DNA of 64,000 nt from Planctomycetota bacterium (GTDB lineage: Bacteria; Planctomycetota; GCA-002687715; CAIWVZ01): the NCBI GenBank assembly GCA_044222185.1, contig JBGANV010000001.1, forward strand, positions 128,001-192,000. The letters run 5' to 3'. This document shows, piece by piece, positions 3,516 to 35,534 of this stretch. Every line of letters begins with the position of its first letter. Position 1 is the first letter of the stretch. The position numbers and the translations under genes are program-made. Below the pieces are notes generated by a model, which was given only the letters and a program-made list of their open reading frames with translations, did no database searches and was not told the origin of the DNA.

Positions 3516-3521
3516 CCGAAC

Positions 3522-6965: not shown

Positions 6966-7170
6966 GGCCGCGGCGCCCCCGGGGGGAGGCGGCCATCGGC
7001 ACGGATTGACGTCAAATGCGGCCCCCGGGGTGGGGTTGTTCGCCGCCGCACGGGCGGTGCGGATTCGCACAGGAAGTTTTCGTTCTTGAAGCCCCTTTCT
7101 GTATAAGGGCCGCAGATCGCTGCGCCCGTCAGCCTTGCCGCGGGGGACGCACGACATCGGAGTGCGACAG

Positions 7171-9147: not shown

Positions 9148-9192
9148 CGCTTGGGCGCGGAGCGCGCACGGCGGCGTCCCATGAGGAAATCG

Positions 9193-21634: not shown

Positions 21635-23658
21635 ACCCCGCGACGGATCTCGTTTCGTTCTCGAGTGCGGAACTCGCGGATCTCTACAGATACTGGACCG
21701 GCGACGGTTCCGGGCCGTCGTCGGACGAGGATTCGATTCGTGATGCGCTCGGCCGGCTCATGTCCGAGCGCGGCCGGGTGATGACGCGCTTCCGCGACCT
21801 CCCACGGCGGCTGCGCGACGTGCTCGGGTGGATGCTCCGACAAAAGGACTTCCGGATCGCCACGCGCGCAGCGTCCGACAAGAACGGCGGCGCCGAGACG
21901 CCTGCACGGAACTTCGAGCTCGACAGCATCCTGGCGGAGCTCAAGCGTCGAGGGTTCGTCGTCGAGGAGCGCGACCGGTCGTGGGTCCGATACCACGAGC
22001 CCGTTTGGCGCGTCCCGCAGGCCCTCGGTGAACTGCTGGTGTCGGAGATCAAGGGCTCGATCCGCACGGTCGAGACCCAGATCTCGCTCCGCGCGCACGT
22101 TCGTGCGCTGGCGAAGGATCTGCTCGATCATCGGCTCTCGACCTTCGGGATCTCGTTCGCCGACGGCCGCGACCGCGCCGAGCTCGTGCAACCCCTCGCA
22201 TCGACGGAACGTCTCGAAGATGCGATTCGCCGCGTTTCAGATCCACGGTTGCGCGACGCCGTGTGCCGAGCGCTCGACGAGCATGGCGGAATGCTCGACC
22301 GGGGGCAGCTCGAGCGCCTGGAACTCCTTCCTGAGAACCTGGAGCCCTGGCGCGCGGAGCTGGAGCACCTGCTCCTGGGCACGATCGCCGACTTCGACCT
22401 CGCCGAGGTCGGCCTCCTCTTCAAGCCCGGCTCGATGATCATCTTCCACGAGCTTGCGCGAACACACCTGAATCGCGGACTCGAGGTCCACGTCGATGAA
22501 GCGCCCGAGGCTCCGGCCGAGCCGCTCGCCGACCTGTCCGCGATACGATCGTTCCTCGATCACCACAGCGTTCGAGCGACGCGCGAAGGCTCCCTCTACC
22601 GCGCAACGGCCCGCAAGATGGAGTCGGAAGTGTTGTCGCCTGGGAGCCGCCCGGTCTCGCAGGAGGCCGCGCTGGGATTCCTGCTGGAGTTCCTCTTCGC
22701 GGCGGACCTCGTCCGGGTCGACGACGACCAGCGGCTCCGTCCACGCCCCAGCTGGAAGACGTTCGAGGAACTTCCGCCGACCGCGCGCGGCGAGCAGTTG
22801 CTGCGCTTCGTTCAAGAGGATCTGCGGTCGATGAAGGCCGAGTTCCACCACGGTCGTCTTCGCCGGGTTTTCCTGACGATGTTGAAGGAGACGGGCGCGG
22901 GGCGGTGGATCGACTTGCGGAACCTGGCCCAGCTGGCGCGGAACTTCTACCTGGCGACGCTCGACGTCCGCTCGACGGCAGACCGATTCCAGCGTCGTTA
23001 TCAGTACACACCGATCCCGCCGCTGGTTTCCCTCGCCCTCGTCACGCGCGAACTCGTGGAGTTTGCGGGGTCACGGCTCGCCACGGCGGGACTCGTCGAA
23101 CTCCATGCGCCAGAGGACGGGCGGCCATCGATCCGACTCACGCGGCTCGGCTCCGCCGTCCTGGGTCTTGCCGCAGACAACGCGGGCACGACCGTCGACG
23201 GAGGGCTGATCGTGACGGCCGACTTCGAGATCGTCGTGTTTCCCGGCGCCGTCGAATACGACGTGACGCACGCACTGGGGCGCTTCGCGCGCCGCGAGAA
23301 GGCCGACGTGACCGTTCACTACCGGATCTCGGAACGATCGATCCAGGAGGCCGTCGCCGCTGGGATGGCGGCGTCGGAGATCCTCGCACTCCTGCGTCGT
23401 CATGCGCGGTACGACGTGCCTCAAAACGTGGTCGCTTCGTGCGAGGCCTGGGCGCGCGCGGTGACGGTCCTCGAGAGCCGCCGCACGATCGTGCTGCGCG
23501 CCGCGTCGAAGGCCGCCCTCGATGCCGCGATGAAAGTCCGCGAGCTGAAGGCCATCGTTGTCGAGCGGATCAGCGACACGGTCATCGAGGTGAACGAGGA
23601 CCCGACGACCGTGCGGATCGCAGAGGCGCTGCGAACCCAGGGCTTCTTCCTGCGGTGA
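21631..23658 (+). CDS. XPB-associated protein with a C-terminal Helicase_C_3 / Tfb2(p52)-like domain
   Basis: GTGA overlap with XPB; C-terminal GGLIVTADFEIVVF...YRISERSIQEAVAAGMAASEILALLRRHA..VPQNV...W. Confidence 0.8.
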   Translation: MNPATDLVSFSSAELADLYRYWTGDGSGPSSDEDSIRDALGRLMSERGRVMTRFRDLPRRLRDVLGWMLRQKDFRIATRAASDKNGGAETPARNFELDSILAELKRRGFVVEERDRSWVRYHEPVWRVPQALGELLVSEIKGSIRTVETQISLRAHVRALAKDLLDHRLSTFGISFADGRDRAELVQPLASTERLEDAIRRVSDPRLRDAVCRALDEHGGMLDRGQLERLELLPENLEPWRAELEHLLLGTIADFDLAEVGLLFKPGSMIIFHELARTHLNRGLEVHVDEAPEAPAEPLADLSAIRSFLDHHSVRATREGSLYRATARKMESEVLSPGSRPVSQEAALGFLLEFLFAADLVRVDDDQRLRPRPSWKTFEELPPTARGEQLLRFVQEDLRSMKAEFHHGRLRRVFLTMLKETGAGRWIDLRNLAQLARNFYLATLDVRSTADRFQRRYQYTPIPPLVSLALVTRELVEFAGSRLATAGLVELHAPEDGRPSIRLTRLGSAVLGLAADNAGTTVDGGLIVTADFEIVVFPGAVEYDVTHALGRFARREKADVTVHYRISERSIQEAVAAGMAASEILALLRRHARYDVPQNVVASCEAWARAVTVLESRRTIVLRAASKAALDAAMKVRELKAIVVERISDTVIEVNEDPTTVRIAEALRTQGFFLR

Positions 23659-23762: not shown

Positions 23763-26015
23763 TTAGGTCCCGAACTCGGCGAGGCCGTCGACGATGAGCT
23801 CGACCTTGTAGTTCGCGATGCCGGAGGGCAGGGGAACGGGGACGTCCTCGCCTACGCGGCGACCGAGGATCGCCATGCCGAGCGGTGACAGGTAGGAGAG
23901 GATCCCCTTTTCCTGGTCGGCATCCCAGGGTCCCAGAAGCGTGTAGATCTGTCGGCGGTTCGTGCCCTCCTGAGAGAGCGTGACCTTGGAACCCACGGTG
24001 ACGTGTTCGCCGTCCTGCATCGTGTGTTCGATCACACGCGCACGATTGAGATCTCGGGCCAGGTCCTCCGACTTCCGGGTGAGCTGGGTCTGTTTCTCGA
24101 TCGCCGCGCTCCACTCCGCGTTCTCGGAGAGGTCGCCGTACGAGGCGGCGCGGCCGATCTCGGCGGCGTTCTCTGGGATGTCCACGTTGACGAGGTGCTC
24201 GTATTCCTGCTGCTTGCGGAACAACCCCTGCTCGGTCGTGTAGATGACGTTCGCGTCCACACCACCTGGAAGAGCCGACGCTTCCTCGTCCTGCCGCGCC
24301 AGTTCGGGCCGCGTGCGGAGCATGTACGCGATCATCTTGTCGCGGATGTCGCGCGGGAGGCTCCTGTTGCTTCGGATCACGGTGCTGACGTTGCGGCCCT
24401 CGGTCTCCGTCGCCGCGACGAAGGCGTCCTTGACGACGCTGTAGTTCCCGGCCTGGATGAGGTTGGCCAGGGTCTTGCCCACCTTGCGGAGCTCGGCGTC
24501 TTCCTCACGGTAGAGCTTCTGCTCCAGGTGACTGTGCAGGATCACGATCTTCTCGAGCAGCGTCGGAAGCGGGATCTGCGGCACGCCCTCGGGGAGCTTC
24601 TCCTGCAGCTGGTGCCGCGCAAAGAAGGTGAAGGCCAGGGGGAAATCCCGGAACTTCCCGATGACGTCCTTCTCGATGCGGTCGACGACGTCCTTGCGGC
24701 CATGGCGGACGAGAGCCGACAGGGCGGCGTCGGCCGTTTCCGGCTCGCCGCGGAGAATGACCGTCCGATACAGCTCGGCCCAATCCTTGTCGCCAGATTC
24801 GCGAAGCACCTCGAGCGCCTCGATGCGATGCCCGGCGATCGGAATCGAGGGGAGCGCTTCCATGACGCTCTTGTGGTTGCTGCACAGAAGCTGGGGCGCG
24901 GCCTCGGGCGGAATGGTGATGCTCTTGTAGATCTGCTGCGCTTCCTTCATGAGGAAGGCGAGCGAAATCCGGCAGCCGAGTGGCACGTCGCTCTTCGGCG
25001 ACAATCCGGCCATCAGGACCTGGGCGACGGCGGTGACCGCTTCCTCTCCATCCGAGTGGTCCTGTGCCTCCTTCAGAAGGTCGCGGAAGTACTTCACGCG
25101 TTTGACGTCGTTATCCAGGAGGCGGAGGTCTCGGAGGCAGTTCTGCGAGTACCCGCGCATCTCGGGCGCGAGCTCGATGATCGGGTTGCTTCCCGGTGCA
25201 ACCGTGACGTCCGATGCAGTTTTCAGCTTCAGACGTGCCTTCTGCCACCAGCGGGACCAATCGCCGGCCGGGATGATTCCGTCGGTGAGTCGATCGCGCA
25301 GCTCGCGGAGGGTTGCCTTGTTGCGCCGGCTTCGGAGTGCCGCTCGGATGAGCTCCGTCGTATCGCCTTCGACCATGAGCGTGAGCTCGGCCAGCCGGTC
25401 GAGCTTCATGGCGCGCAGGTCATTCGAGTCGACGAACTCGGTGATGTTTCGTGCCATCTCCATCGACAGTCGATGGCCCTTCTTGGTCCCGAAGTCGATC
25501 ACGACCGACGCCTGCTCGGCGTCGACCATCACGATGCGGCCGGTGCCCCAGCCGGCCGGGTGGTGGACGTACCGCCCTTCGCGGAACGCGAAGTACGTAT
25601 CCATCTTGTTGACGGCCGTCTTGAGATCGGGGTCAGCCTCGATCTTGCTGTGGCGCAGGAAGATCGGGAGGTGCGGGTTGTCTTTGTGGATCGCCTTGTA
25701 GGCAGTCAGCAGCCCGTGGCGAAGGATCCGCTCCTTCGGTGCGATCTCCGCCATCTTGCGAAGGGAGACGAGGGCGTTCTCGAATTGGCCTTGCTCGAGG
25801 AAGCGCGCGGTGAGCCCGGAGAGGAGCTGTCCCGCCTTCTCGAAGTTGCCTATGGACTCGAGTCCGGCAATCCCTTGCATGAAGACACCCACGTCTTCGG
25901 GCGAGCTCTCGGTCAGCTCCGCCCACAGGGCGTCGAAGAGTTGGTGCTTTCCTTGTTCTGCGTACTCGCGAAGCTGACGTTTGCGGCCGTCCGGGGTCGG
26001 GTTCTGTAGACTCAT
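23763..26015 (-). CDS. greA: Long-form transcription elongation factor GreA (about 590 aa N-terminal extension)
   Basis: C-terminal Gre domain (EIGRAASYGDLSENAEW, VTVGSKV, YTLLGPWDAD, SYLSPLG); the N-terminus has helical repeats and an HPAGWGTG Tudor-like motif. Confidence 0.88.
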   Translation of the reverse strand: MSLQNPTPDGRKRQLREYAEQGKHQLFDALWAELTESSPEDVGVFMQGIAGLESIGNFEKAGQLLSGLTARFLEQGQFENALVSLRKMAEIAPKERILRHGLLTAYKAIHKDNPHLPIFLRHSKIEADPDLKTAVNKMDTYFAFREGRYVHHPAGWGTGRIVMVDAEQASVVIDFGTKKGHRLSMEMARNITEFVDSNDLRAMKLDRLAELTLMVEGDTTELIRAALRSRRNKATLRELRDRLTDGIIPAGDWSRWWQKARLKLKTASDVTVAPGSNPIIELAPEMRGYSQNCLRDLRLLDNDVKRVKYFRDLLKEAQDHSDGEEAVTAVAQVLMAGLSPKSDVPLGCRISLAFLMKEAQQIYKSITIPPEAAPQLLCSNHKSVMEALPSIPIAGHRIEALEVLRESGDKDWAELYRTVILRGEPETADAALSALVRHGRKDVVDRIEKDVIGKFRDFPLAFTFFARHQLQEKLPEGVPQIPLPTLLEKIVILHSHLEQKLYREEDAELRKVGKTLANLIQAGNYSVVKDAFVAATETEGRNVSTVIRSNRSLPRDIRDKMIAYMLRTRPELARQDEEASALPGGVDANVIYTTEQGLFRKQQEYEHLVNVDIPENAAEIGRAASYGDLSENAEWSAAIEKQTQLTRKSEDLARDLNRARVIEHTMQDGEHVTVGSKVTLSQEGTNRRQIYTLLGPWDADQEKGILSYLSPLGMAILGRRVGEDVPVPLPSGIANYKVELIVDGLAEFGT

Positions 26016-26776: not shown

Positions 26777-26861
26777 TGCCGGGGAAGGGACTTGAACCCA
26801 TACGCCCTGTCAAGGGCTGTGGATTTTGAATCCACCGCGTCTGCCATTTCGCCACCCCGGC
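26777..26861 (-). tRNA. tRNA-Leu(CAA), long variable arm, CCA not encoded
   Basis: Minus strand GCCGGGG-TGGCGAAATGGCAGACGC-GGTGGA-TTCAAAA-TCCAC-AGCCCTTGACAGGGC-GTATGGGTTCAAGTCCCTT-CCCCGGC-A. Confidence 0.96.
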
Positions 26862-26946: not shown

Positions 26947-27882
26947 TCACCGGGCATCGGTCGTCGCTGCGACGGCATGGGGAGCCTCGAAATCCTCCGG
27001 CTGCTCCGGATACGGATCCGCGTGAATCGTCACGAGCGCGCCCGGGATCGTCTGTTCGATCGCTGCGCCCACTTCCTCCACCATCCGGTGTGCCGCACGG
27101 AACGACAACGATGCATCCAGCTCGAGGTGCATCTGGATGAATCGGCGGGGGCCAGCGCGGCGCGTCATCAGATCGTGAAACCCGTGGACGGCTGGGCGTC
27201 GCGCGAGCACGACGTCTTCGATCCGCTTGAGCTCCTCTCCCGAGATCTTCGCGTCCATCAGCCCGTTGATCGCTTCGAAGCCGTTCTTCCAGGCGAGGCG
27301 GACGATGGCGATTCCGATGATTCCGGCGATGACGGGATCGGCCCAGCGCCACCCGAGGAGCGAGTCACACGCGAACGCGACGATCACGCCGGCGTTCGTG
27401 AGGTAGTCAGAGGCGTAGTGCGCAGCATCCGCCCGAAGTGCCGGTGAGTCGGACCGGTTCCCCGCCCGCGACAGGTGGCGTGCGAGGAGAAAGGCGACGG
27501 TGATCGAGACGGCGGCGATCGACAACCCGATGCCCGGCTGACGGAGCGGGGCGCCGATGTCGTGGTTCGTCACGGGCGCCAGGATGCAGAGCGCCGCGGC
27601 GCCAGCGAGGATGAGCGTCTGGAAGAGCGCGCTGAGATGTTCGACCTTCCCGTGACCGAAGGGATGTCCGGCATCCGGTGGGCTGACCGCAAGGCGGACC
27701 GACCATGCACTGACTCCGCTGACGAACGCGTCCGTGGCGGAGTCGACGGCTGCGGCGAGGAGCGTCGCGGAACCGGTGACTGCGTACCCCACCGTTTTCA
27801 GGAGGGCGAGCGCGATGGAAACCAGCATGGCGGTGATCGCCGGTTTCTCTCGTCCTGGCGCTTCCGTACGTTCGACTCTCAC
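26947..27882 (-). CDS. Cation diffusion facilitator transporter (FieF/YiiP-like)
   Basis: DSATD, PPDAGHPFGHGKVEHL, ADAAHYASD, HDLMTRRAG, TIHADP. Confidence 0.92.
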   Translation of the reverse strand: MRVERTEAPGREKPAITAMLVSIALALLKTVGYAVTGSATLLAAAVDSATDAFVSGVSAWSVRLAVSPPDAGHPFGHGKVEHLSALFQTLILAGAAALCILAPVTNHDIGAPLRQPGIGLSIAAVSITVAFLLARHLSRAGNRSDSPALRADAAHYASDYLTNAGVIVAFACDSLLGWRWADPVIAGIIGIAIVRLAWKNGFEAINGLMDAKISGEELKRIEDVVLARRPAVHGFHDLMTRRAGPRRFIQMHLELDASLSFRAAHRMVEEVGAAIEQTIPGALVTIHADPYPEQPEDFEAPHAVAATTDAR

Positions 27883-28153
27883 GGCGCGATTATTCGGTTC
27901 AGCGGTGCGTGCGGCAAGGCGAATCCAGCGCGGCTCGCTCGCAGATCTTGGAGCTCAGGAGATTGGGTCGCGGTCACATGTCCGTGCGGCCGGTTGCTCA
28001 GGGTTCGGCGGCCGACGGCCGCGCGCCGCGCGGGCGGTTCGCCTGCGCCAGCTCCGCGCGGAGAAAGGTGGCACCATGCGCTCGGTTTCCCGTGTGATCT
28101 CGAATAATCGCAGGGTGGCTGAGAATACGCGTCCCAAGGAGTTTCGACCGAGC

Positions 28154-30175
28154 ATGTTTCGCGAACTGAAGAAGCTCAGCGACGCCGAGCGCCTGCTGAA
28201 AGAAGGCCGTTTCGGCGACGTCCTGGCGCTGACGCGCGATCCCGAGATCTCCCAGCACCGGCGCGCCGTCGAGGTTCGGAAGGAAGCCCGCCTGGCCTTG
28301 GCAAACGCGGCCAAAGCGGACCTTAAGGAAGGCCGGGTGCCGGCGGCCGCGCAGAAGGTCCGTCTCGTGCTCGACGATGGGCCTGACGATGCGGCTGCGG
28401 CGCTCGATCGCGAGATCCGAAGTTCCGCAGAACGGGCCGATGCGCTCGATCGGGCGGCAGGCACCGCGCTGCGAGAGGCCCGGTGGCTCGCCGACCAGGG
28501 TGATCGTTCGCGCGCGCGGCGGATGTTGGAGAGCCATCCCACGCCGGCCGTCCGCGAGTTCCTCGATGGGCTCGAGGAAGCAGAACGCTCCGAGAACGCT
28601 GCGCTCACCCGCGCGCGCCAAGCGCTCTCGGCCGAGCCACGAGGCGTGAGCCCGCGAGCCGTCCTGAAGGAGGCTCGGTCGCAGGTGCGAGCGCAGGCGC
28701 CGCTCGCCAGGCTGCATGGCGAGGCGGCCGAGATGCTCCTGAAGGCGAAGGACTGGACGGAACTCGCCGGAGCGCTTGCTGACGCCATCTCGGGAGGGAT
28801 CGAATTCGGCGACACGATCGATCGCTACGGCGAGGCCCTGCTGGAAGCGGCGCGGGATCACGTTCTCGCGGGCGCGACGGCGGACGCCGCGTCTCTGCTC
28901 CGTGCCTTCCCGCTCAAGTCGACGTCGGACACCGCTGCCGCCGCACTCAGACAGGGGGTGTGGGCCGTCGGTCGCGCTGCGGCCCTCGCGCGTCGCGGTC
29001 ATGCTCGACTCGCGGAAGAGCTTTTCACCGAGGCCGAGGAACTTCTTCCCAAGGCCCGTGTCGCGAGGTCAGCTCGCGCCGAAGCGGAAGCGGCGGCCGA
29101 CGACGTCGAGGCCGCGATCGAAGAGGCGACCCGACTCGTGCGCGAGGGAAATCTGGCCGGCGCGCGCGAGCGCATCCGCGCGGCTGCGGGTGACGGGTTG
29201 GAGGAGAACCGCGCGCTCGAATTCGCGCAGGTGCTTGATGACGTGACCGCCGACGATGATGCGCGACTGGAAGAGGCGCGTCAGGCATCCGCCGCCGGTG
29301 ACACGCGCCGGGCCAAACGGATCGCACAGGGCCTCGTGCTGCGTCGTCCCGACCTCGCGGGAGCACGATTGCTTCTCGACGAACTGACCCAACGTGAAGA
29401 GCAGGCGCAGCGTGCGTCCGCCGACGCCGAGCGGCGCCTGCTGCGGAACGTCGCAGCGCGTGTGGAAGGGGTTGCCCACATGGAGACCCAACGTCCGCTC
29501 GTGCCACCACTTGCCTCCGACGTTCCCATTCTGCCGGGAGATCCGTTCTTCCTGCGCGTGGAGAACGAAGGAGATTGGTTCATCCATCCAGGGCGCGTCG
29601 TCTGGTTCGGGAACCAGGCCAACGGGCGCGCCGACCTTCCGGTGCTTGCCGCACTGGGGGCCCAGCATGCTTCCATCGAGCGCGTCGTCGATCCTCAGGG
29701 GGCCGCGAGGTACGTCTTCACCCTGGCGCCCGGACAGACCGCGTGGCGAAACCGCAGCCCCGTGACGACTTGCACGCTGGCCCCAGGCGACCTCATCCAG
29801 CTGGGGCCCTCGTTCGGGTTCACGTTCCAGCGGCCGAACCCCGCGAACACGTCGGCAGTACTTCGCATCCACGGCGACTTCACCGTGCACGGCTGTACCC
29901 GCGTCGTCCTGTTCTCGGAGACCGGGCGGAATGGTGCGATCCTTCTCGCTCCCGGGTCCGACGGCCACGCCGGTCTGCGAAGCGTGGACGCTCGGGTCGA
30001 GGTCTTCCGCGGCTTAGATGGTCCGCAGGGGGGCGAGCTGATGGCGCGCAGTCCCCATGGAATCGCATCCGGAGACGAGCCGGAGCGAGCGCAGGTGCGT
30101 GTTCGCAGCGGGCTGCCGCTTACGGTCGGTGCGCTTCGCATCCACGTCGATTCACTGAAGTCCTCGGCACGCTGA
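28154..30175 (+). CDS. Helical-repeat (TPR-like) protein with C-terminal degenerate FHA-like domain(s)
   Basis: AAGGAG SD before ATG 28154; Ala/Arg/Glu-rich helical N-terminus; C-terminal VWFGN..ADLPVLAALGAQHASI..LAPGDLIQLG beta-sandwich pattern. Confidence 0.65.
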   Translation: MFRELKKLSDAERLLKEGRFGDVLALTRDPEISQHRRAVEVRKEARLALANAAKADLKEGRVPAAAQKVRLVLDDGPDDAAAALDREIRSSAERADALDRAAGTALREARWLADQGDRSRARRMLESHPTPAVREFLDGLEEAERSENAALTRARQALSAEPRGVSPRAVLKEARSQVRAQAPLARLHGEAAEMLLKAKDWTELAGALADAISGGIEFGDTIDRYGEALLEAARDHVLAGATADAASLLRAFPLKSTSDTAAAALRQGVWAVGRAAALARRGHARLAEELFTEAEELLPKARVARSARAEAEAAADDVEAAIEEATRLVREGNLAGARERIRAAAGDGLEENRALEFAQVLDDVTADDDARLEEARQASAAGDTRRAKRIAQGLVLRRPDLAGARLLLDELTQREEQAQRASADAERRLLRNVAARVEGVAHMETQRPLVPPLASDVPILPGDPFFLRVENEGDWFIHPGRVVWFGNQANGRADLPVLAALGAQHASIERVVDPQGAARYVFTLAPGQTAWRNRSPVTTCTLAPGDLIQLGPSFGFTFQRPNPANTSAVLRIHGDFTVHGCTRVVLFSETGRNGAILLAPGSDGHAGLRSVDARVEVFRGLDGPQGGELMARSPHGIASGDEPERAQVRVRSGLPLTVGALRIHVDSLKSSAR

Positions 30176-30255
30176 CGGACGCTCCGGCCCACCGGAATAT
30201 CGGTCGGCCTTCGCGTAGACCGTCTCCAGTGTCCTCGCTGGGAGACAAGTACGCC

Positions 30256-31104
30256 ATGAAACGCTTCACAGTGCTCCTGACGCTGTTCGTTCTGGGAGCG
30301 AACCTTGTGGCGCAGGATGTGGAACCGACGCTGGCTCGCGCGGTTGTCCGGATCTCGCACCGGCTCGCACGAGAGCTGCCGTACCGAGCAGCCCCAGCGG
30401 ACGCGCTGATGCTGAGGCCGGAAAAGGGGACGCGAGCAGCAGCCATTCAGGCCCTCGGGCAGGCACTTCTGGCAGAGGGCTTTCGGATCCAGGCCGACCG
30501 CGCCGGCGCCGATGAGGCTCGCGTGCTCCCCCTGGCGATCTCGACCCGGCCGGCCGGGGAGGTCGTCGCACTTCGCGTCGCTACCAACGACGACCCTCCA
30601 TTCGCCATCGAATGCGCCTACGGCGGAGCCGGGTGGGTCGACGCGGCCGCAGACGGATCGCTCCGCCGGATCGTGATTGCAGGACCGCTCGCCGGTACAC
30701 CGGAGCGAGCCGTCGAACTCGCCCGCGGCCAGGTCGAGGAGCGCCTTCGCGCGGGTTTCCCCGCGTTGGCGCGCCGTCAGCCATCGAACTCCTTCCTGAA
30801 TCCGCGGCACCTGAGCTCTTTCATCGCGTCCGAGGGCGCGGGCGACTCGCGGCTGTTCCGTGCTTACGTAGCCGCGGAGCCGGAGATCCAACGCCTCGAG
30901 CGGGCCGAGCGGCTCGCCATCGGTGCCGAATGGATCGGGCCACTGGTTCGCCTTGGTCTCGGCGGTGCTGCGGCACTGACCTGCTGGCTCCTGTTCCTGC
31001 GGTCCGACTTCCGCTCCCGCGGGTACCGGACGGGCCGGCTGAGGATCGCGTTTGCTACGCTGTTCGCAGTTCTGACTGCGGGCATCTGGAGGCTGCCACT
31101 GTGA
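30256..31104 (+). CDS. Exported/membrane protein (signal peptide plus C-terminal TM hairpin)
   Basis: GGGAG SD; MKRFTVLLTLFVLGANLVA-Q; C-terminal TM-RSDFRSRGYRTGRLR-TM. Confidence 0.65.
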   Translation: MKRFTVLLTLFVLGANLVAQDVEPTLARAVVRISHRLARELPYRAAPADALMLRPEKGTRAAAIQALGQALLAEGFRIQADRAGADEARVLPLAISTRPAGEVVALRVATNDDPPFAIECAYGGAGWVDAAADGSLRRIVIAGPLAGTPERAVELARGQVEERLRAGFPALARRQPSNSFLNPRHLSSFIASEGAGDSRLFRAYVAAEPEIQRLERAERLAIGAEWIGPLVRLGLGGAAALTCWLLFLRSDFRSRGYRTGRLRIAFATLFAVLTAGIWRLPL

Positions 31105-32408
31105 TGGGCCTAGCCACCGAACCAGCCGCAGCCGGGCCTGAGCCAAGAGCGATGGACTGGGAAGGCTTCTTTCGAGCGTTCCGCGAGCCGGACTTCGTTC
31201 CCGGATATCAGATCCTGAACAAGCTCGGTGGCGGTGTATTCGGCGACGTCTACAAGGCGCGGAAGACGTCGATAGGGAAGTTCTATGCCGTCAAGTTCCT
31301 CAAGGTCCTCGACGAGCAGACTCGCGACGACGTTCTTCGCGAGCTGAAGTCCGTCGACGCCTTCGCCCAGGTCGATCATCCCCATCTCGTGTCCATCGAG
31401 GACAAGGGCGAGGTGAAGGGCATTCCCTACATCGTGATGAGCTACGCCGGAGACGAAACGCTCCGCACGCGACTGTCACAGGGGCCGCTGCCGGTGCCGA
31501 CGGCCTATCAGCTCTTCGGCCAGATCCTGCAGGGAGTCTCGGCACTTCACGAGCGATCGATCATTCACTTCGATCTGAAGCCGGCGAACGTCTTCCTCAA
31601 GGGGGAGGTTGCACGCGTCGGTGACTACGGCCTCTCGAAACTCGTCACGCAAACGGCGCGCACACTCTCCATGGGCCGAGGAACTCCGGCGTACATGGCC
31701 CCCGAGATGCTCCAGCGCAAGGGCGATGCGCGGTCAGACGTCTACTCGCTTGGCGCCATGCTCTTCGAGATGCTCGCCGGCAGGGCGCCGTTCGAAGGCG
31801 AGAGCGAGTGGGAAGTCCTCAAGAAACACGAGACGGCACCGGTCGTGTTCCCGGTCGCCATACCGGACGCCGTTCGTCCGCTCATCACGCAGGCGCTGGC
31901 GAAGGAGCCGGAGCGGAGGTTCAGGGACGCTGCCGCGATGATGAGGGCGTTCGAGGCAAGCATTGGTCAGTCGAACAGCGGGTCCGTGGCGATTCCGCCC
32001 CCCATCCTTCCTGCGGCAATGTCGAACGGTGCCTCCGCCGGCCTCGGGCAGCGTGTCGGGCAGGTCGTCGGCCGCGGTGCGGCGCAGGCCGGCGCGACCG
32101 TCGCAACGGTCGGGCAACGCATCCAGGACCTGTGGGACGTCGTGCGGACCGAAACCAGTGAGGCGGTGACGACTGCGCGCAACGCATACCAGCGCAACCG
32201 TCCGATGACGCCGCCGCCCGGTTTCCCGTCGAGGCCCACTCCGCCGCCCGTGCCCCGCCGGCGCGGCTTCTTCCTGACGGTGTTTGGCGCGCCCTTTCGC
32301 CTGGTGCGGTGGGTCTTCTCGAACCTCATCACGGTCGTCCTGACCTGCGCGATCGCCGGGGTCCTCATCGGGCTCGTCGATGTTGCCCTCGAAGCGCTGA
32401 TCAGATAG
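31104..32408 (+). CDS. Ser/Thr protein kinase (non-RD, HFD catalytic loop) with C-terminal membrane anchor
   Basis: LGGGVFGDV, YAVK, HFDLKPAN, DYGLSK, GTPAYMAPE, DVYSLG; Pro-rich linker and hydrophobic C-terminus; TGATG overlap. Confidence 0.92.
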   Translation: MGLATEPAAAGPEPRAMDWEGFFRAFREPDFVPGYQILNKLGGGVFGDVYKARKTSIGKFYAVKFLKVLDEQTRDDVLRELKSVDAFAQVDHPHLVSIEDKGEVKGIPYIVMSYAGDETLRTRLSQGPLPVPTAYQLFGQILQGVSALHERSIIHFDLKPANVFLKGEVARVGDYGLSKLVTQTARTLSMGRGTPAYMAPEMLQRKGDARSDVYSLGAMLFEMLAGRAPFEGESEWEVLKKHETAPVVFPVAIPDAVRPLITQALAKEPERRFRDAAAMMRAFEASIGQSNSGSVAIPPPILPAAMSNGASAGLGQRVGQVVGRGAAQAGATVATVGQRIQDLWDVVRTETSEAVTTARNAYQRNRPMTPPPGFPSRPTPPPVPRRRGFFLTVFGAPFRLVRWVFSNLITVVLTCAIAGVLIGLVDVALEALIR

Positions 32409-32417
32409 CCTCGCGCC

Positions 32418-33056
32418 GTGGGCGTCGCCGACTATGACATCACCAAGCTCCAGGCCCTCGACGAGGCCGAATGGAGCAAGCTTCGCGACGAGTATCACGA
32501 CCGCGTGTTCGGGTACGTGAAGCGGCAGATCGCTGACCCGGAGCTCGCGGAGGACCTCACTCAGGACACGTTCCTCGGCGCCATCCGCGGCATCCGCGGA
32601 TTCGACCGCCGCTACAACGTCGAGCAGTACCTCATGGGGATTGCTCGCAACAAGGTGATCGATCACCTGCGGAAGAAGCGCGCCGAGGTCAGCATCGCCG
32701 ACAAGAACGAAGACTCGTCGGGGTTCTTCAACATCACACCATCTCCGACCGCTCGACGCCCAAGCCAGATCCACTCGGCGCGCGAGACGATTACGCGGCA
32801 GAAGGACGCGCTCGTCGAGTGCCTCCACGACATGGTCCAGGACCTCAAGTCGAAGCGCGAGTTCAAGAAACTCATGGCGATCGAGCTGTGCTTCCTGAAA
32901 GACTGGAAGCACCGCGCCATCGCCGAGAAGCTGGCGATCTCGGACGAGAAATCCATCGCCGGGATCAAGTTCAGGGCAATTCGTGACCTTCAGCAGCGAC
33001 TCATGAAGCGCGACCCGCGCAAGACGCTCTTCAGCGAGTTGTGGAGGCAGGGATGA
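32418..33056 (+). CDS. ECF sigma factor (sigma70 group 4)
   Basis: Region 2 (ELAEDLTQDTF...YLMGIARNKVIDHLRK) and region 4 (KHRAIAEKLAIS..SIAGIKFRA). Confidence 0.9.
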   Translation: MGVADYDITKLQALDEAEWSKLRDEYHDRVFGYVKRQIADPELAEDLTQDTFLGAIRGIRGFDRRYNVEQYLMGIARNKVIDHLRKKRAEVSIADKNEDSSGFFNITPSPTARRPSQIHSARETITRQKDALVECLHDMVQDLKSKREFKKLMAIELCFLKDWKHRAIAEKLAISDEKSIAGIKFRAIRDLQQRLMKRDPRKTLFSELWRQG

Positions 33057-33472
33057 GGGACTGCCCGGAACTACGCGAGATCGCCCGTTTCGTCGAAACG
33101 GGAGAAGGTCCCAAGGACCTGGTCGATCACCTGAAGGTGTGCGACGCGTGCCAGGACGCCCGCGACAACCTGGAGGACGAGGTCACCAGCCTCCAGATCT
33201 CGATCTCGGAACTGTGGTTCCGCGAAGGCGTGTCCTGCGTCAGTCTCGAGGCGCTCCAGAAGTACGCAGCGCGCCAATTGCCGGCGGACGAGCAGGAATA
33301 CGTCGCGTTCCATCTGGAGACGCTCGAGTGCCGGACGTGCCAGGCCCGTCTCGGGGCGCACGAAACGGCAGCGTCACCCGAAGGTCGGCGTCGGATCACC
33401 CAGTCTCGATCCCGAGTCGCGGACGCGACGACGAGGCTCCTGGGGACGCTCCGAAAAGAACAGCGCCCTTGA
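33053..33472 (+). CDS. Small soluble protein with two zinc-binding (ZAS/zf-HC2-like) motifs; putative anti-sigma factor
   Basis: ATGA overlap with the ECF gene; C...HLKVCDAC and C...HLETLECRTC; no TM. Confidence 0.7.
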   Translation: MRDCPELREIARFVETGEGPKDLVDHLKVCDACQDARDNLEDEVTSLQISISELWFREGVSCVSLEALQKYAARQLPADEQEYVAFHLETLECRTCQARLGAHETAASPEGRRRITQSRSRVADATTRLLGTLRKEQRP

Positions 33473-33657
33473 TCCGGCGGCCGGGCGAGAGCGCCCGACT
33501 CCATGGTCGTTCCCCGCGCCGTCCGGCCCCCATCCCACGATTTTTCGTCGCCCGTAATACCGCCAGGGTGCCTACGTATGCGTCCCCCATCGGCCGGGAA
33601 TCGACGGTGGGTGATCCCCCCGCAAAATGAACCCGGAAACGCACAGGAGTTGCATCC

Positions 33658-34476
33658 ATGTTCAAGAAGCTGGTGATTGGGTCGGTGGTGTTCGCGGGTC
33701 TGGCGTTCTTGTTCCTGGGGCCGGCGGTCGTGTCGCACGCCCGGCATGCGTTCGGGTCCGTTCGCGAGGGCGTGCAGGGCGCGTTCCCCATCGAATACGA
33801 ACTCCAGCGGGCAGAGCGGATGATCCAGGACGTCGCGCCGGAGATCGAGAAGGCCAAACACTCCGTGGCGGAAGAGCAGGTCGAGATCTCCTACCTCGAG
33901 CAGGAGGTCACCCGGCTCGAGAAGCGCATCTCTGACTCGGAGCGCAAGGTCAAGTTGCAGAACGCCTCCATGAAGACGGGGGAGACGTCCTTCACCTTCG
34001 CGGGGCGCCAGTACACCCGCAACCAACTGGAGAACGACCTGCGGCTGACGTTCGACGAGTTCAAGAACGACCAGCAGCTGATCGGCAGCAAGAAGAAACT
34101 CCTCGAGGCCCGGACCGGGGCGCTCCAAGCCGCGATCCAGAGGCTCGAGGCCGTGCGGGCGCAGGAAGGCCAGCTCCGCGCGAACGTCGAGAACCTTCGT
34201 GCGCGGCTCCGTCACACGCAGGCCATCGAGGCGTGCAGTGGGAAGATCACCCTCGACGACGGCGCGCTCGCCCAGGCGAAGGAGATTCTCGCCCGGTGCC
34301 AGAAGCGGATCGACGTCGCGTCGAAGGTGATCGAGAACGAGGGTGCCCGTCCGGGGGCGATCGCGCCCGAGGCCATGGATGTCCGTGACATCACTGCGGA
34401 GGTCGACCGGTACTTCACGCAGCCCGCGCAGGCGCCGACCGTCGATGCGACGGCCTCCGCCCGCCTCGAGCGGTGA
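33658..34476 (+). CDS. Membrane-anchored coiled-coil protein, PspA/IM30 (ESCRT-III)-like
   Basis: AGGAG SD; N-terminal hydrophobic helix; PIEYELQRAERMIQD..EIEKAKHSVA heptads, LRARL..QA, LAQAKEILAR..KRID and C-terminal ITAEVD follow the PspA helix pattern (judged by eye). Confidence 0.6.
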   Translation: MFKKLVIGSVVFAGLAFLFLGPAVVSHARHAFGSVREGVQGAFPIEYELQRAERMIQDVAPEIEKAKHSVAEEQVEISYLEQEVTRLEKRISDSERKVKLQNASMKTGETSFTFAGRQYTRNQLENDLRLTFDEFKNDQQLIGSKKKLLEARTGALQAAIQRLEAVRAQEGQLRANVENLRARLRHTQAIEACSGKITLDDGALAQAKEILARCQKRIDVASKVIENEGARPGAIAPEAMDVRDITAEVDRYFTQPAQAPTVDATASARLER

Positions 34477-34508
34477 GCCACTGAGCGCGGTTCGTTCCGC
34501 GACTGAAG

Positions 34509-34550
34509 GAAGGCCGTCCGGCGTACCCGCCGACGGCCTTCGTCGTTTTT
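34509..34550 (+). terminator. Intrinsic terminator after the PspA-like gene
   Basis: GAAGGCCGTC(C)GGCG-TACC-CGCCGACGGCCTTC stem followed by GTCGTTTTT. Confidence 0.75.
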
Positions 34551-34694
34551 GCATCGAACGCAGGCCTGCGCACCGCGTCGGCGCGGGACTGGCTTCTTGT
34601 TCACGACGCGCCGGCGTCGGAAGATCGGCCACAGGCGGTCGCCGCTCGGCAGGCCGCACCACCGCCGTCTTCAGGTCAAAGGAGGACCCGTACC

Positions 34695-35534
34695 GTGACC
34701 GACTCCACCAACCCAGGCCCCCAGAGTCCGGCCCCTGCACCGGCCCCCGCCACGGCGACGGATTTCGCCATTCGCGAGATCGCCGCCAAGCGCGAGGCGA
34801 AGAAGCCGTCGCACGTGAGTGAACGGGAGTGGCAGCGGCACCGGTGCGCGGCGGGCACGATGGTGCTCATCCGCAGCCACTTCAAATCGATCTACCTCAT
34901 CCCGATGGCGGTGCTTTCACTGCTCTGCGGGATCTGGATGGTCTTCACGGACCCGGGCACGGCTGCCGATCCCCACGGCGTGTCCTACAAGATCGGGCTC
35001 GTCTGGATCCTGGCGTTCGTGTTCTACATGAACATCTTCATCTTCGAGTGGTCGCGAACCTGGACCTACGTCCTCCTGGCGACCATCCTCGCGCTCGTAT
35101 TCCTGGGGTTTGCGGTGAACGGCCCCGGATTCCCGGTCTGGCAGAAGGTCCGGGACGTGATCGGGGTGAGCCGCTTCGAGTTCTCGGCGCAGTCGTACTT
35201 CTTCTTCGCCATCTACTTCGCGTTTTGCGCCACTCTCTCGTGGCTGAAAACACGCTTGAACTACGTGGTCGTCGAGCACAACGAGATGCAGATGCACCGA
35301 AACGCCCTCTTCGGGGATCGGGAGCGTGTGTCCCTCCTCAACCCGCGGATCGAGGTTCGCGTTCCTGACATGCTGGAGTACTTCCACCCGTTGTATCGGG
35401 CCGGCCAGATCATCATCCACGCGCCCGACAGGACGATCGTCCTCGACAACGTCCTGCACATCCGCGCGATCGAGCGCACGCTCGACCACCTCACGGGGAC
35501 GTTGAGCGTGCAGGTCGAGAAGCCCGCAACTTGA
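34695..35534 (+). CDS. Four-TM membrane protein with a C-terminal cytoplasmic beta domain (bacterial PH-like)
   Basis: AAGGAGG SD; four hydrophobic segments; tail YRAGQIIIHAPDRTIVLDNVLHI resembles bPH_2 domains. Confidence 0.6.
   Translation: MTDSTNPGPQSPAPAPAPATATDFAIREIAAKREAKKPSHVSEREWQRHRCAAGTMVLIRSHFKSIYLIPMAVLSLLCGIWMVFTDPGTAADPHGVSYKIGLVWILAFVFYMNIFIFEWSRTWTYVLLATILALVFLGFAVNGPGFPVWQKVRDVIGVSRFEFSAQSYFFFAIYFAFCATLSWLKTRLNYVVVEHNEMQMHRNALFGDRERVSLLNPRIEVRVPDMLEYFHPLYRAGQIIIHAPDRTIVLDNVLHIRAIERTLDHLTGTLSVQVEKPAT

What the first reader, a model, noticed from the sequence alone, without database searches (positions are those of the whole stretch)
28101..35534. Kinase-ECF-zinc protein locus apparently controlling a membrane-anchored PspA/ESCRT-III-like protein
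Seen: co-oriented, mostly overlapping genes for a helical-repeat/FHA-like protein, an exported membrane protein, a non-RD membrane kinase, an ECF sigma and a double zinc-motif protein. A separately transcribed PspA-like gene with its own terminator and a TM/PH-like protein follow. Known: kinase-associated ECFs are described in Planctomycetes, and direct phospho-activation of ECFs is shown for Vibrio EcfP/PknT and Xanthomonas EcfK/PknS. PspA/Vipp1 are bacterial ESCRT-III membrane-repair proteins, usually controlled by PspF-sigma54 or LiaRS. Inference: a phosphorylation- and zinc/redox-gated envelope-stress or membrane-remodelling system with non-canonical wiring, of particular interest in a phylum with elaborate inner membranes.
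Basis: partly seen in the sequence, partly recalled or inferred. Interest (0 to 1): 0.8.

Follow-up and report, generated by a model that had tools for sequence, protein, structure and literature searches.

The report
Kinase-sigma signalling cassette with coiled-coil partner
This is a six-gene signalling cassette of planctomycete bacteria (a kinase, its likely helpers, a stress sigma factor, a zinc-binding inhibitor and a membrane-anchored coiled-coil protein), and the coiled-coil protein cannot be shown to be a PspA-type membrane-repair protein.

Summary
They encode a helical/FHA protein (A), an exported membrane protein (B), a tail-anchored non-RD Hanks kinase (C), an ECF sigma (D), a soluble protein with two Cys-His-Cys-Cys zinc motifs (E), a membrane-anchored coiled-coil protein with its own terminator (F) and a multi-pass membrane protein (G).

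A to F form a conserved cassette. One distant MAG keeps the same order. An Isosphaeraceae MAG keeps all six but shuffled (F, A, C, B-like, D, E), so F is linked to the kinase-ECF-zinc genes by more than shared descent.

The "PspA-like" label is weak:
- No Pfam PspA_IM30 hit, even at E<=10.
- No PspA or Vipp1 hit with the family profile against PDB sequences.
- hhalign against E. coli PspA gives 3.3% probability.
- The model is a long helical hairpin whose best Foldseek matches are Vipp1 (E about 1e-3), but EnvC, RipA and V-ATPase stalk hairpins score similarly.
- The invariant MxKK plus a hydrophobic helix suggests the coiled coil faces the periplasm.

The sigma keeps its acidic sigma-2.2 motif and has an anti-sigma candidate. 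The wiring therefore resembles Mycobacterium SigE-RseA-PknB more than ECF43 phospho-activation. ECF control of F was not testable. I rate this a new variant of a known kind, of moderate interest.

The parts
28154..30175 (+). Gene A: a helical-repeat (TPR-like in relatives) N-terminal half, then an FHA-fold domain (about 29537-29854) and a second, unassigned beta domain (about 29855-30172). An alternative start lies at 28076.
   Evidence: 230 representative homologues at E<=1e-3, and their alignments begin at the residue encoded at 28154. Of 50 homologues scanned, 13 hit Pfam FHA at E<=1e-3 and 7 hit TPR models. The C-terminal profile hits FHA structures, with KIF1B 2eh0 at E 1.9e-7. The model has pLDDT 93.1 and its top Foldseek hits are all FHA domains.
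30256..31104 (+). Gene B: an exported or periplasm-exposed protein with an N-terminal signal-like helix and a C-terminal pair of TM helices. Its stop codon overlaps the kinase start by 1 nt.
   Evidence: Hydropathy segments at residues 4-22, 230-248 and 264-282. No Pfam or NCBIfam family. Only the C-terminal TM hairpin is conserved: E 1e-6 against L002 and E 0.003 against L003 7763-8746.
31104..32408 (+). Gene C: a Hanks-type Ser/Thr kinase. It is non-RD (HFD) and tail-anchored by one TM helix at the extreme C-terminus, so it has no extracytoplasmic sensor domain.
   Evidence: Pfam Pkinase E 4e-46. TM at residues 411-429 of 434. HFD in the window and L002, HRD in L003 (translations).
32418..33056 (+). 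Gene D: an ECF sigma factor (GTG start) with an intact acidic sigma-2.2 motif, a Ser-rich linker (D-SSGFF) and a conserved C-terminal tail (DPRxTLFSGLW).
   Evidence: Sigma70_r2 E 1.6e-17. TIGR02937 at 69.1 bits against a cut-off of 42.9. The family profile hits ECF sigma structures. Alignment A2 holds 31 sequences.
33053..33472 (+). Gene E: a soluble 139-aa protein with two Cys-His-Cys-Cys motifs. It is the candidate zinc-binding anti-sigma factor and overlaps D by 4 nt.
   Evidence: C4, H26, C30 and C33 are nearly invariant; C62, H87, C93 and C96 are invariant in 23 sequences. zf-HC2 scores 18.9 bits, below the 22.2 cut-off. ChrR-family N-terminus E 4.4e-4. No TM segment.
33658..34476 (+). 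Gene F: an N-terminal hydrophobic anchor (MFKK plus residues 6-24), then a long antiparallel helical hairpin with a beta-hairpin tip and one further helix.
   Evidence: Model with pLDDT 75.9. Foldseek results. 28 homologues at E<=1e-3. No PspA signal.
34509..34552 (+). Intrinsic-terminator-like hairpin and U tract downstream of F.
   Evidence: Pattern scan. RNA fold with MFE -38.7 kcal/mol and z -2.81. A comparable GC hairpin plus T run follows F in L002 (sequence printed).
34695..35534 (+). Gene G: a multi-pass membrane protein with a soluble C-terminal domain. It is a neighbour and not part of the conserved cassette. It lies 36 nt upstream of speA.
   Evidence: TM segments. 52% identical in L002 but absent from L003. 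No Pfam or NCBIfam family. Atlas gives only a 0.83 lead to bPH_2.

Best explanation
Genes A to F are a conserved Planctomycetota envelope-signalling cassette built around an ECF sigma and a soluble zinc-binding anti-sigma candidate, with a Hanks kinase as the input.

Proposed mechanism:
1. The kinase (C) has no sensor domain of its own. It is tail-anchored in the cytoplasmic membrane next to B, whose bulk is outside the cytoplasm and whose gene is translationally coupled to the kinase gene. B is the likely sensor partner.
2. A, a helical-repeat/FHA protein, acts as the cytoplasmic scaffold or adaptor of the kinase.
3. In the resting state E holds the sigma (D) through its Cys-His-Cys-Cys domains.
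4. A signal reaches E as kinase-dependent phosphorylation and possibly also as thiol oxidation. E then releases D, as described for M. tuberculosis RseA/SigE and RshA/SigH with PknB.
5. F is a constant sixth member. It is a membrane-anchored helical-hairpin protein whose coiled coil most likely faces the periplasm. It works either as the envelope-side partner of B or as the main product of the regulon, and not as a classical cytoplasmic PspA.

Shown here: gene identities, folds, motifs, membrane segments and conserved linkage. Inferred: every protein-protein contact, the kinase substrate, the zinc and redox role of E, the topology of F and the ECF regulon.
For: Linkage:
- L002 keeps the order A-B-C-D-E-F-G-speA-argS. 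Identities are D 62%, E 47%, F 42% and kinase 52%.
- L003 (Isosphaeraceae) has F-like 2862-3776, FHA protein 4062-5720 (Pfam FHA E 6.9e-6), kinase 5774-7699, a B-like signal-plus-two-TM protein 7763-8746, ECF 8832-9503 and zinc protein 9510-10010. All are on one strand, and G, speA and argS are absent.
- L001 carries D, E and F in a row. The NCBI locus tags of the same three proteins are consecutive.
- The F and E hit lists share six contig lengths. The F and D lists share five.

Kinase without a sensor: a single TM at residues 411-429 of 434, and a B/C overlap of 1 nt.

FHA in A. The A4 profile also finds the bona fide FHA domain of the sigma-54 activator in the window.

Anti-sigma candidate: a 4-nt D/E overlap, two conserved CHCC motifs, sub-threshold zf-HC2 and ChrR-family hits, and one homologue named 'anti-sigma factor RsiW' by its source.

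The sigma is not of the phospho-dependent type. Its sigma-2.2 reads AEDLTQD in the window, AADLVQE in L002 and SEDVVQE in L003. ECF43 has the uncharged QTTA there (passages of PMC13147305).

Precedent for a kinase acting on a zinc anti-sigma: passages of PMC10027907 and PMC13147305.

F topology: an invariant MxKK N-flank (+2), against a net charge of -4 to 0 over the 25 residues after the helix, in 17 of 17 sequences.
Against: - No interaction was tested. The sigma-plus-E complex job was never accepted by the tool.
- The E family profile finds no solved anti-sigma factor in PDB sequences (best E 1.4), and zf-HC2 is below Pfam's cut-off.
- The FHA domain appears to lack the usual phosphothreonine-binding Arg and Ser. 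The window reads GN and GAQH where the recalled FHA consensus has GR and SxxH. Only L003 keeps GR (alignment). A may therefore not read phosphothreonine at all.
- The kinase-associated ECF groups described so far typically lack anti-sigma factors (passages of PMC7826278), so the kinase could serve something else.
- No phosphatase gene lies in the cassette.
- Only three related loci could be fetched, and one of them is 2.1 kb long.
- B-like homology in L003 rests on architecture and one loop motif (E 0.003).
- No shared promoter motif was found upstream of F and of the operon.
- The positive-inside argument for F is weak. The 15 residues after the helix carry -1 to +2.
Confidence: 0.5

Rival explanations
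1. F is a membrane-anchored member of the PspA/Vipp1/ESCRT-III superfamily. It polymerises on the cytoplasmic face of the membrane to repair or remodel it, and its gene is the main target of the kinase- and zinc-gated ECF sigma.
For: - The best Foldseek matches of the F model are Vipp1 filaments and rings: 8qbs E 7.8e-4, 8qbw 9.4e-4, and also 8qbr, 7o3w, 7o3x and 6zvr, with 207-247 aligned columns.
- The architecture (N-terminal membrane helix, long hairpin, further helix) loosely parallels helices alpha0 to alpha4 of PspA.
- Two of the 28 homologues were named 'phage shock protein A' by their source.
- F is linked to the ECF cassette in all three related loci.
- M. tuberculosis SigE reaches a psp operon.
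Against: - No Pfam PspA_IM30 hit even at E<=10, for L003 F-like as well.
- The family profile finds no PspA or Vipp1 chain in PDB sequences at E<=10.
- hhalign against E. coli PspA gives 3.3% probability. The A1 HMM misses PspA at E<=1.
- Only 2 Foldseek hits reach E<=1e-3. Their rmsd is 17-20 A and identity 14-16%. EnvC, RipA (TMt 0.64, rmsd 5.9), PcsB, SMC and V-ATPase stalk hairpins score alike.
- The N-terminus is a hydrophobic TM helix and not an amphipathic one.
- A conserved beta-hairpin sits at the hairpin tip.
- The charge distribution favours an extracytoplasmic coiled coil.
- Other homologues carry the unrelated names CwlO-like, Zn-ribbon or SMC.
- No ECF promoter was found.
Confidence: 0.18
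2. ECF43-like direct activation. The kinase phosphorylates the sigma factor itself, for example on the conserved Ser-rich linker, and that is the main switch. E is then an accessory or unrelated zinc protein.
For: - The kinase gene lies 9 nt upstream of the sigma gene.
- The linker motif D-SSGFF is conserved among close homologues.
- Linker Ser/Thr residues of EcfK are phosphorylated by PknS and are functionally important (passages of PMC13147305).
- Kinase-associated ECF groups are known in Planctomycetes (passages of PMC7826278).
Against: - The sigma-2.2 acidic residues that ECF43 lacks are present.
- A conserved CHCC protein is translationally coupled to the sigma in the window, L001, L002 and L003.
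- The linker motif is not kept in the more distant family members or in L003.
Confidence: 0.15
3. There is no functional unit beyond sigma plus anti-sigma. The kinase, the FHA protein, B and F are neighbours kept together by descent, and F is an unrelated envelope coiled-coil protein.
For: - In L002 the housekeeping genes speA and argS are syntenic too, so that locus alone does not separate function from descent.
- F has its own terminator and a 185-nt gap from E.
- Only three related loci were available.
Against: - L003 has lost G, speA and argS and has reordered the genes, yet it keeps all six gene types together on one strand at 25-37% protein identity.
- The E, F and D hit lists share contig lengths.
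Confidence: 0.12

Closest known systems
Mycobacterium tuberculosis SigE-RseA-PknB, and SigH-RshA-PknB
   Same: An ECF sigma with an adjacent soluble cysteine/zinc-type anti-sigma that responds to redox state and is phosphorylated by a Hanks kinase under surface stress. The SigE regulon also reaches the clgR-psp operon (passages of PMC10027907 and of PMC13147305).
   Different: - Here the kinase, an FHA protein and a membrane partner are encoded in the same cassette as the sigma.
- The kinase has no PASTA or other ectodomain.
- E has two CHCC motifs in 139 aa and no detectable sequence similarity to solved anti-sigma factors.
- No phosphorylation, proteolysis or redox data exist for this system.
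ECF43-type phospho-activated sigma factors (Vibrio EcfP/PknT, Xanthomonas EcfK/PknS)
   Same: A membrane Hanks kinase is encoded next to an ECF sigma, and the sigma linker carries Ser/Thr residues.
   Different: - ECF43 has the uncharged QTTA in sigma-2.2 and no anti-sigma.
- D keeps the acidic motif and has a coupled CHCC partner.
- ECF group membership could not be assigned. ECF Hub is not available here, and the supplements of PMC7826278 are closed.
PspA / Vipp1 (IM30) / ESCRT-III superfamily
   Same: A long helical hairpin preceded by a membrane-binding N-terminal helix. Vipp1 structures are the top Foldseek matches.
   Different: - No sequence or profile similarity.
- A hydrophobic TM helix replaces the amphipathic helix.
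- A conserved beta-hairpin sits at the tip.
- The coiled coil is probably extracytoplasmic.
- No pspBC, pspF or liaI-type neighbours.
Extracytoplasmic coiled-coil hairpins of cell-wall hydrolase regulators (EnvC, PcsB, RipA, CwlO)
   Same: A membrane- or signal-anchored long antiparallel coiled coil. Foldseek hits are 8tzl_E at E 5.2e-3, 4cgk_A, 6ewy and 9hmx_A (TMt 0.64, rmsd 5.9). Three homologues are named CwlO-like by their source.
   Different: F has no LytM, CHAP or NlpC/P60 domain after the coiled coil. No ftsEX genes are nearby. Sequence similarity is at noise level (RipA E 0.42).
PknG-GlnX-GlnH-GarA/OdhI pathway of Actinobacteria
   Same: A kinase with no sensor domain of its own receives its signal through a separate membrane protein and works with an FHA protein. 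This comes from a passage of PMC11032199. GarA and OdhI FHA domains are among the Foldseek hits of A.
   Different: There the output is metabolic (2-oxoglutarate dehydrogenase) and not a sigma factor. PknG is soluble with TPRs on the kinase, whereas here the helical repeats sit on the FHA protein. There is no sequence relationship beyond the shared domains.

Membership tests
PspA/IM30 (Pfam PF04012) and the ESCRT-III superfamily | Sequence or profile match to PspA_IM30 or to solved PspA/Vipp1 chains | tested here: not met
   - No PF04012 hit at E<=10 for F, and none at E<=0.01 for L003 F-like.
- The A1 profile against PDB sequences gives no PspA or Vipp1 at E<=10.
- hhalign of A1 against E. 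coli PspA gives 3.3% probability.
- The A1 HMM misses PspA at E<=1.
PspA/IM30 (Pfam PF04012) and the ESCRT-III superfamily | ESCRT-III-type fold (alpha1/alpha2-3 hairpin followed by alpha4 and alpha5) | tested here: inconclusive
   Vipp1 entries top the Foldseek list, but at E 7.8e-4 to 7e-3, rmsd 17-28 A and 14-16% identity. Unrelated helical hairpins score alike. The model shows a hairpin, a beta-hairpin tip and one further helix.
PspA/IM30 (Pfam PF04012) and the ESCRT-III superfamily | N-terminal amphipathic membrane-binding helix on a soluble or peripheral cytoplasmic protein (feature recalled from the literature) | tested here: not met
   Residues 6-24 form a hydrophobic segment with Kyte-Doolittle mean 2.26, preceded by an invariant MxKK. 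The side of the membrane is not proven.
PspA/IM30 (Pfam PF04012) and the ESCRT-III superfamily | Self-assembly into rings, rods or sheets that remodel membranes | not testable with these tools
   This needs purified protein and electron microscopy.
ECF (group 4) sigma factors | Sigma-2 and sigma-4 regions only, matching ECF models | tested here: met
   Sigma70_r2 E 1.6e-17. TIGR02937 at 69.1 bits against a cut-off of 42.9, covering model positions 3-165 of 165. The profile hits ECF structures 6dxo, 5wuq and 6in7.
ECF43-type kinase-activated sigma factors | Loss of the acidic DxxDxxQE motif in sigma-2.2, with a phosphorylatable Thr (QTTA) | tested here: not met
   The window reads AEDLTQD, L002 reads AADLVQE and L003 reads SEDVVQE. 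The criterion comes from passages of PMC13147305.
ECF43-type kinase-activated sigma factors | No co-encoded anti-sigma factor, with a co-encoded Ser/Thr kinase | tested here: not met
   The kinase is present, but a conserved CHCC protein overlaps the sigma gene. The criterion comes from passages of PMC7826278.
Zinc-binding anti-sigma factors (ZAS, Pfam zf-HC2 PF13490) | C/H-x(n)-H-x3-C-x2-C zinc motif | tested here: met
   C4-x21-H26-x3-C30-x2-C33 is nearly invariant. A second site, C62-x24-H87-x5-C93-x2-C96, is invariant and has non-canonical spacing. The motif definition is recalled.
Zinc-binding anti-sigma factors (ZAS, Pfam zf-HC2 PF13490) | Pfam zf-HC2 match above the gathering score | tested here: not met
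   18.9 bits against 22.2 for E, and 20.0 bits for L003 E-like. There are no anti-sigma hits in PDB sequences.
Zinc-binding anti-sigma factors (ZAS, Pfam zf-HC2 PF13490) | Binds and inhibits its cognate sigma factor | not tested
   The complex-prediction job for D plus E was never accepted by the tool, so nothing was computed.
FHA domain (Pfam PF00498) | FHA beta-sandwich fold and profile similarity | tested here: met
   - The window protein alone has no Pfam hit.
- The family profile hits FHA structures, with 2eh0 at E 1.9e-7 and 3hx1 at 5.9e-5.
- The pLDDT 93.1 model matches FHA domains, with 15 hits at E<=1e-3.
- 13 of 50 homologues and the L003 orthologue hit PF00498.
FHA domain (Pfam PF00498) | Conserved phosphothreonine-binding Arg (GR) and Ser (SxxH) (consensus recalled) | tested here: not met
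   The window reads GN and GAQH, L002 reads GS and GRRH, and L003 reads GR and ARNH. Most of the 22 aligned sequences lack both residues. The mapping was done by eye on the alignment and not on a superposition.
Hanks-type Ser/Thr kinases | Pkinase domain with catalytic Lys, HxD, DxG and APE motifs | tested here: met
   Pkinase E 4e-46. The motifs AVKF, HFDLKPAN, DYG and APE were read from the translation. It is non-RD because Phe replaces Arg.
Bacterial PH domain (bPH_2, PF03703) for G | Pfam match | tested here: not met
   No Pfam hit at E<=10. The Atlas gives only a 0.83 feature lead to a cluster in which 58% of members carry bPH_2.

The most novel reading that the evidence does not exclude
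F founds a Planctomycetota-specific branch of the PspA/Vipp1/ESCRT-III superfamily. This branch would have diverged beyond sequence recognition and would be permanently membrane-anchored. It would be produced or controlled by a dedicated kinase/FHA/ECF/zinc-anti-sigma cassette, giving this phylum, with its invaginated inner membranes, a private membrane-remodelling system.
Probability: 0.15. Interest if true: 0.8.

Novelty: new variant of a known kind. Interest (0 to 1): 0.45.

Why it matters
Kinase-linked ECF sigma factors are common in Planctomycetota but have mostly been treated as anti-sigma-free systems switched on by direct phosphorylation of the sigma. This cassette instead combines, in one conserved unit:
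- a sensor-less, tail-anchored kinase;
- a membrane partner;
- an FHA scaffold with degenerate phosphothreonine-binding residues;
- an ordinary-looking ECF sigma;
- a soluble anti-sigma candidate with two zinc sites.

That makes it a compact and genetically tractable example of a Ser/Thr-kinase signal and a thiol/zinc signal converging on one sigma factor, outside the Actinobacteria. The sixth gene, F, belongs to a phylum-restricted family with no Pfam domain. Settling its topology and whether it assembles would show whether planctomycetes have their own envelope-maintenance device. If F is simply a periplasmic coiled-coil adaptor, the finding is a useful but incremental addition to ECF signalling.

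Tried and rejected
- Promoter search. An exact dyad search (5-mer, N14-19, 4-mer) across five upstream regions found 0 dyads shared by at least 4 regions, against a shuffled mean of 0.08. A 9-mer footprint comparison of the regions upstream of F, of A and of D found only GC-rich matches. It also found a GAATC...CCCCG(N)AAAT pair whose spacing differs between loci (19, 15 and 8 nt), so I do not accept it as a promoter. In L003, one exact 9-mer is shared between the regions upstream of F and of the sigma. About 0.26 such matches are expected by chance (my estimate), so I did not pursue it.
- Sigma-70 and terminator pattern scans were at or below shuffle expectation, apart from the terminator after F.
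- Rfam at gathering thresholds found only a tRNA at 26777-26861 on the minus strand.
The job was not sent on. One search gave no usable answer.
- Literature. Jogler et al. 2012 (recalled; J Bacteriol) is not held. A search for ECFSTK and kinase-associated ECF terms gave one unrelated paper. No listing or 115 describes this cassette. This statement rests on those five searches only. The supplements of PMC7826278, which hold the per-group descriptions, are closed.
- E as a known anti-sigma fold by sequence: there was no PDB hit.
- B: no family was found and it was not modelled.
- I considered and rejected a link to the FHA/sigma-54 activator at 7135-9147 acting as a PspF-like regulator of F. It lies 24 kb away, and no sigma-54 evidence was sought.

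Full report
**What is there**

The window is about 64-72% G+C. Between a divergent cation-efflux gene (26947-27882, minus strand; Cation_efflux E 3.3e-38) and speA/argS lie seven co-oriented genes.

| Gene | Coordinates | Size |
|---|---|---|
| A | 28154-30175 | 673 aa |
| B | 30256-31104 | 282 aa |
| C | 31104-32408 | 434 aa |
| D | 32418-33056 | 212 aa, GTG start |
| E | 33053-33472 | 139 aa |
| F | 33658-34476 | 272 aa |
| G | 34695-35534 | 279 aa |

- For A, an ATG at 28076 is also open, but homologues align from the residue encoded at 28154.
- Junctions: A/B has an 80-nt gap, B/C overlaps by 1 nt, C/D has a 9-nt gap, D/E overlaps by 4 nt, E/F has a 185-nt gap, F/G has a 218-nt gap, and G/speA has a 36-nt gap.
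- "Mostly overlapping" therefore means 2 of the 4 junctions within A to E.
- Third-position G+C is 0.76-0.90 for all seven genes.

**Identities**

- **C (kinase).** C is a Hanks kinase (Pkinase E 4e-46). Its catalytic loop reads HFD, so it is non-RD. Its only hydrophobic segment is residues 411-429 of 434. It is therefore tail-anchored and has no ectodomain.
- **B.** B has a signal-like N-terminal helix and two C-terminal TM helices. It has no known family.
- **D (sigma).** D is an ECF sigma (Sigma70_r2 E 1.6e-17; TIGR02937 at 69.1 bits against a cut-off of 42.9; ECF structures).
- **E (zinc protein).** E has no TM segment. It has two Cys-His-Cys-Cys motifs. C4/H26/C30/C33 has the canonical H-x3-C-x2-C spacing. 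C62/H87/C93/C96 has H-x5-C-x2-C spacing. The second motif is invariant in 23 sequences, including the distant L003 protein, which lacks the first. Pfam zf-HC2 is sub-threshold (18.9 against 22.2 bits). A ChrR-family anti-sigma model matches weakly (E 4.4e-4). The family profile finds no solved anti-sigma factor.
- **A (helical/FHA protein).** A has no Pfam hit of its own, but several lines point to an FHA domain:
  - It has 230 representative homologues at E<=1e-3.
  - Of 50 homologues scanned, 13 hit FHA at E<=1e-3, 12 of them above Pfam's cut-off, and 7 hit TPR models.
  - A profile of the C-terminal 231 residues hits FHA structures (KIF1B 2eh0 at E 1.9e-7, Slr1951, GarA, EssC, FhaA; 23 sequences at E<=1).
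  - Its AlphaFold model (pLDDT 93.1) matches FHA domains only among the listed hits, 15 of them at E<=1e-3.
  - The match covers roughly the first 110 residues of the fragment. A second beta domain remains unassigned.
  - By eye on alignment A4, the usual phosphothreonine-binding Arg and Ser (consensus recalled) are mostly absent. The window reads GN and GAQH.

**The "PspA-like" gene**

Sequence and profile tests are negative:
- F has no PspA_IM30 hit even at E<=10. Only generic coiled-coil noise appears.
- Its 17-sequence profile finds no PspA or Vipp1 chain among PDB sequences at E<=10.
- hhalign against E. coli PspA, fetched from the K-12 record, gives 3.3% probability.
- The family HMM does not find that PspA at E<=1 among 789 ORF translations.

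The structural evidence is ambiguous:
- The model (pLDDT 75.9) shows a hydrophobic helix at 2-19 and a low-confidence helix at 23-42. A long hairpin follows (helices 45-106 and 121-196), joined by a conserved beta-hairpin at 111-120, and then a helix at 201-229.
- Foldseek puts Vipp1 entries first (8qbs E 7.8e-4, TM 0.42/0.55, rmsd 17 A, 16% identity).
- Only 2 hits reach E<=1e-3.
- EnvC, RipA, PcsB, SMC, YscO-like and V-ATPase stalk hairpins follow closely.
- I read this as "a long helical hairpin". That is compatible with the ESCRT-III fold but not diagnostic of it.

Other observations on F:
- All 17 aligned family members start with MxKK before the hydrophobic helix. They carry a net charge of -4 to 0 over the next 25 residues, and -1 to +2 over the next 15. 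This favours an N-in orientation with the coiled coil outside the cytoplasm, but it does not prove it.
- Source annotations of homologues are inconsistent. They include phage shock protein A (2), CwlO-like (3), Zn-ribbon (5), SMC-like (2) and hypothetical.
- The Atlas places F among Planctomycetota clusters without Pfam families.
- F is followed by a good intrinsic-terminator candidate, and the same is true in L002.

**Linkage**

The F family is small by the word-indexed search: 28 proteins at E<=1e-3. So is the E family, with 30. The sigma family is larger, with 168.

- **L001 (2.1 kb).** It carries D, E and F in a row.
- **L002.** It keeps A-B-C-D-E-F-G-speA-argS at 33-62% identity. Its A is a short 346-aa form.
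- **L003 (an Isosphaeraceae MAG).** Its F homologue is 28% identical over 267 residues (E 1e-31). The genes are, in order:
  - F-like;
  - an FHA protein (Pfam FHA E 6.9e-6);
  - a kinase, here HRD and with three TM segments;
  - a protein with the architecture of B and its loop motif (E 0.003);
  - an ECF sigma;
  - a protein with the second CHCC motif.

  All lie on one strand, and G, speA and argS are absent.
- The six gene types thus stay together while their order and flanks change. This is the main argument for a functional cassette, and F belongs to it.
- As soft support, the F and E hit lists share six contig lengths and the F and D lists share five.

**Mechanism**

- The sigma keeps the acidic sigma-2.2 residues whose absence defines the phospho-activated ECF43 group (passages of PMC13147305).
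- Unlike most kinase-associated ECF groups (passages of PMC7826278), this sigma has a coupled anti-sigma candidate.
- The nearest described logic is M. tuberculosis RseA/SigE and RshA/SigH. There a redox-sensitive anti-sigma is also a PknB substrate, and SigE reaches the clgR-psp operon (passages of PMC10027907).
- I therefore favour the following model. B, perhaps together with F, senses an envelope cue. The tail-anchored kinase, scaffolded by A, modifies E, and D is released.
- Every step after the gene identities is inference.
- No shared promoter could be found with so few sequences, so ECF control of F remains open.

**Limits**

- Only three related loci were available.
- The metagenome and viral contig collections and the paper supplements were closed.
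- The D-plus-E complex prediction never ran.
- B was not modelled.
- The ECF group was not assigned.

Noticed in passing
window 7135-13492 (+): A second FHA/kinase pairing. A 670-aa FHA-GAF-sigma-54-activator-HTH protein (7135-9147; FHA E 1.4e-18, Sigma54_activat E 9.1e-69) is followed by a weak peptidase-MA-like ORF (9151-10302) and a 1094-aa Ser/Thr kinase (10208-13492).
   Followed up: partly
window 14143-19941 (+): A 1932-aa protein with duplicated UvrA modules (UvrA_inter and UvrA_DNA-bind, two stretches each). It is followed by an XPB/ERCC3-like helicase (19925-21634) and a Helicase_C_3 protein (21631-23658).
   Followed up: no
window 23763-26015 (-): A 750-aa protein whose GreA/GreB domains occupy only residues 591-739. 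The first roughly 590 residues have no Pfam match at E<=1e-5.
   Followed up: no
window 32418-33056 (gene D), C-terminal 17 residues: The sigma family carries a nearly invariant tail after region 4 (DPRxTLFSGLW) and a conserved linker motif (D-SSGFF). Neither is present in the L003 sigma. They could be docking or phosphorylation sites.
   Followed up: partly
window 33053-33472 (gene E), residues 46-58: A nearly invariant Ser-rich segment, SLQISISELWFRE, lies between the two zinc motifs. W55 and R57 are invariant, including in L003. It is a candidate sigma-binding helix or kinase target.
   Followed up: no
L002 5547-6587: The A orthologue in L002 is only 346 aa. It keeps the first roughly 45 residues and the FHA/beta C-terminal half but lacks most of the helical repeats. 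Short forms (340-360 aa) also occur among the representatives.
   Followed up: partly
window 26777-26861 (-): A tRNA gene (Rfam 55.4 bits) lies just downstream of the cation-efflux gene.
   Followed up: no
window 52131-63464 (+): A MoxR-type AAA ATPase (52131-53120) lies upstream of a 2700-aa protein with VWA and TPR domains (55362-63464).
   Followed up: no
window 2445-6965 (+): A run of lipopolysaccharide core and lipid A genes: LpxK, a lipid A acyltransferase, a PfkB kinase plus a cytidylyltransferase (a split HldE-like pair), and a heptosyltransferase.
   Followed up: no
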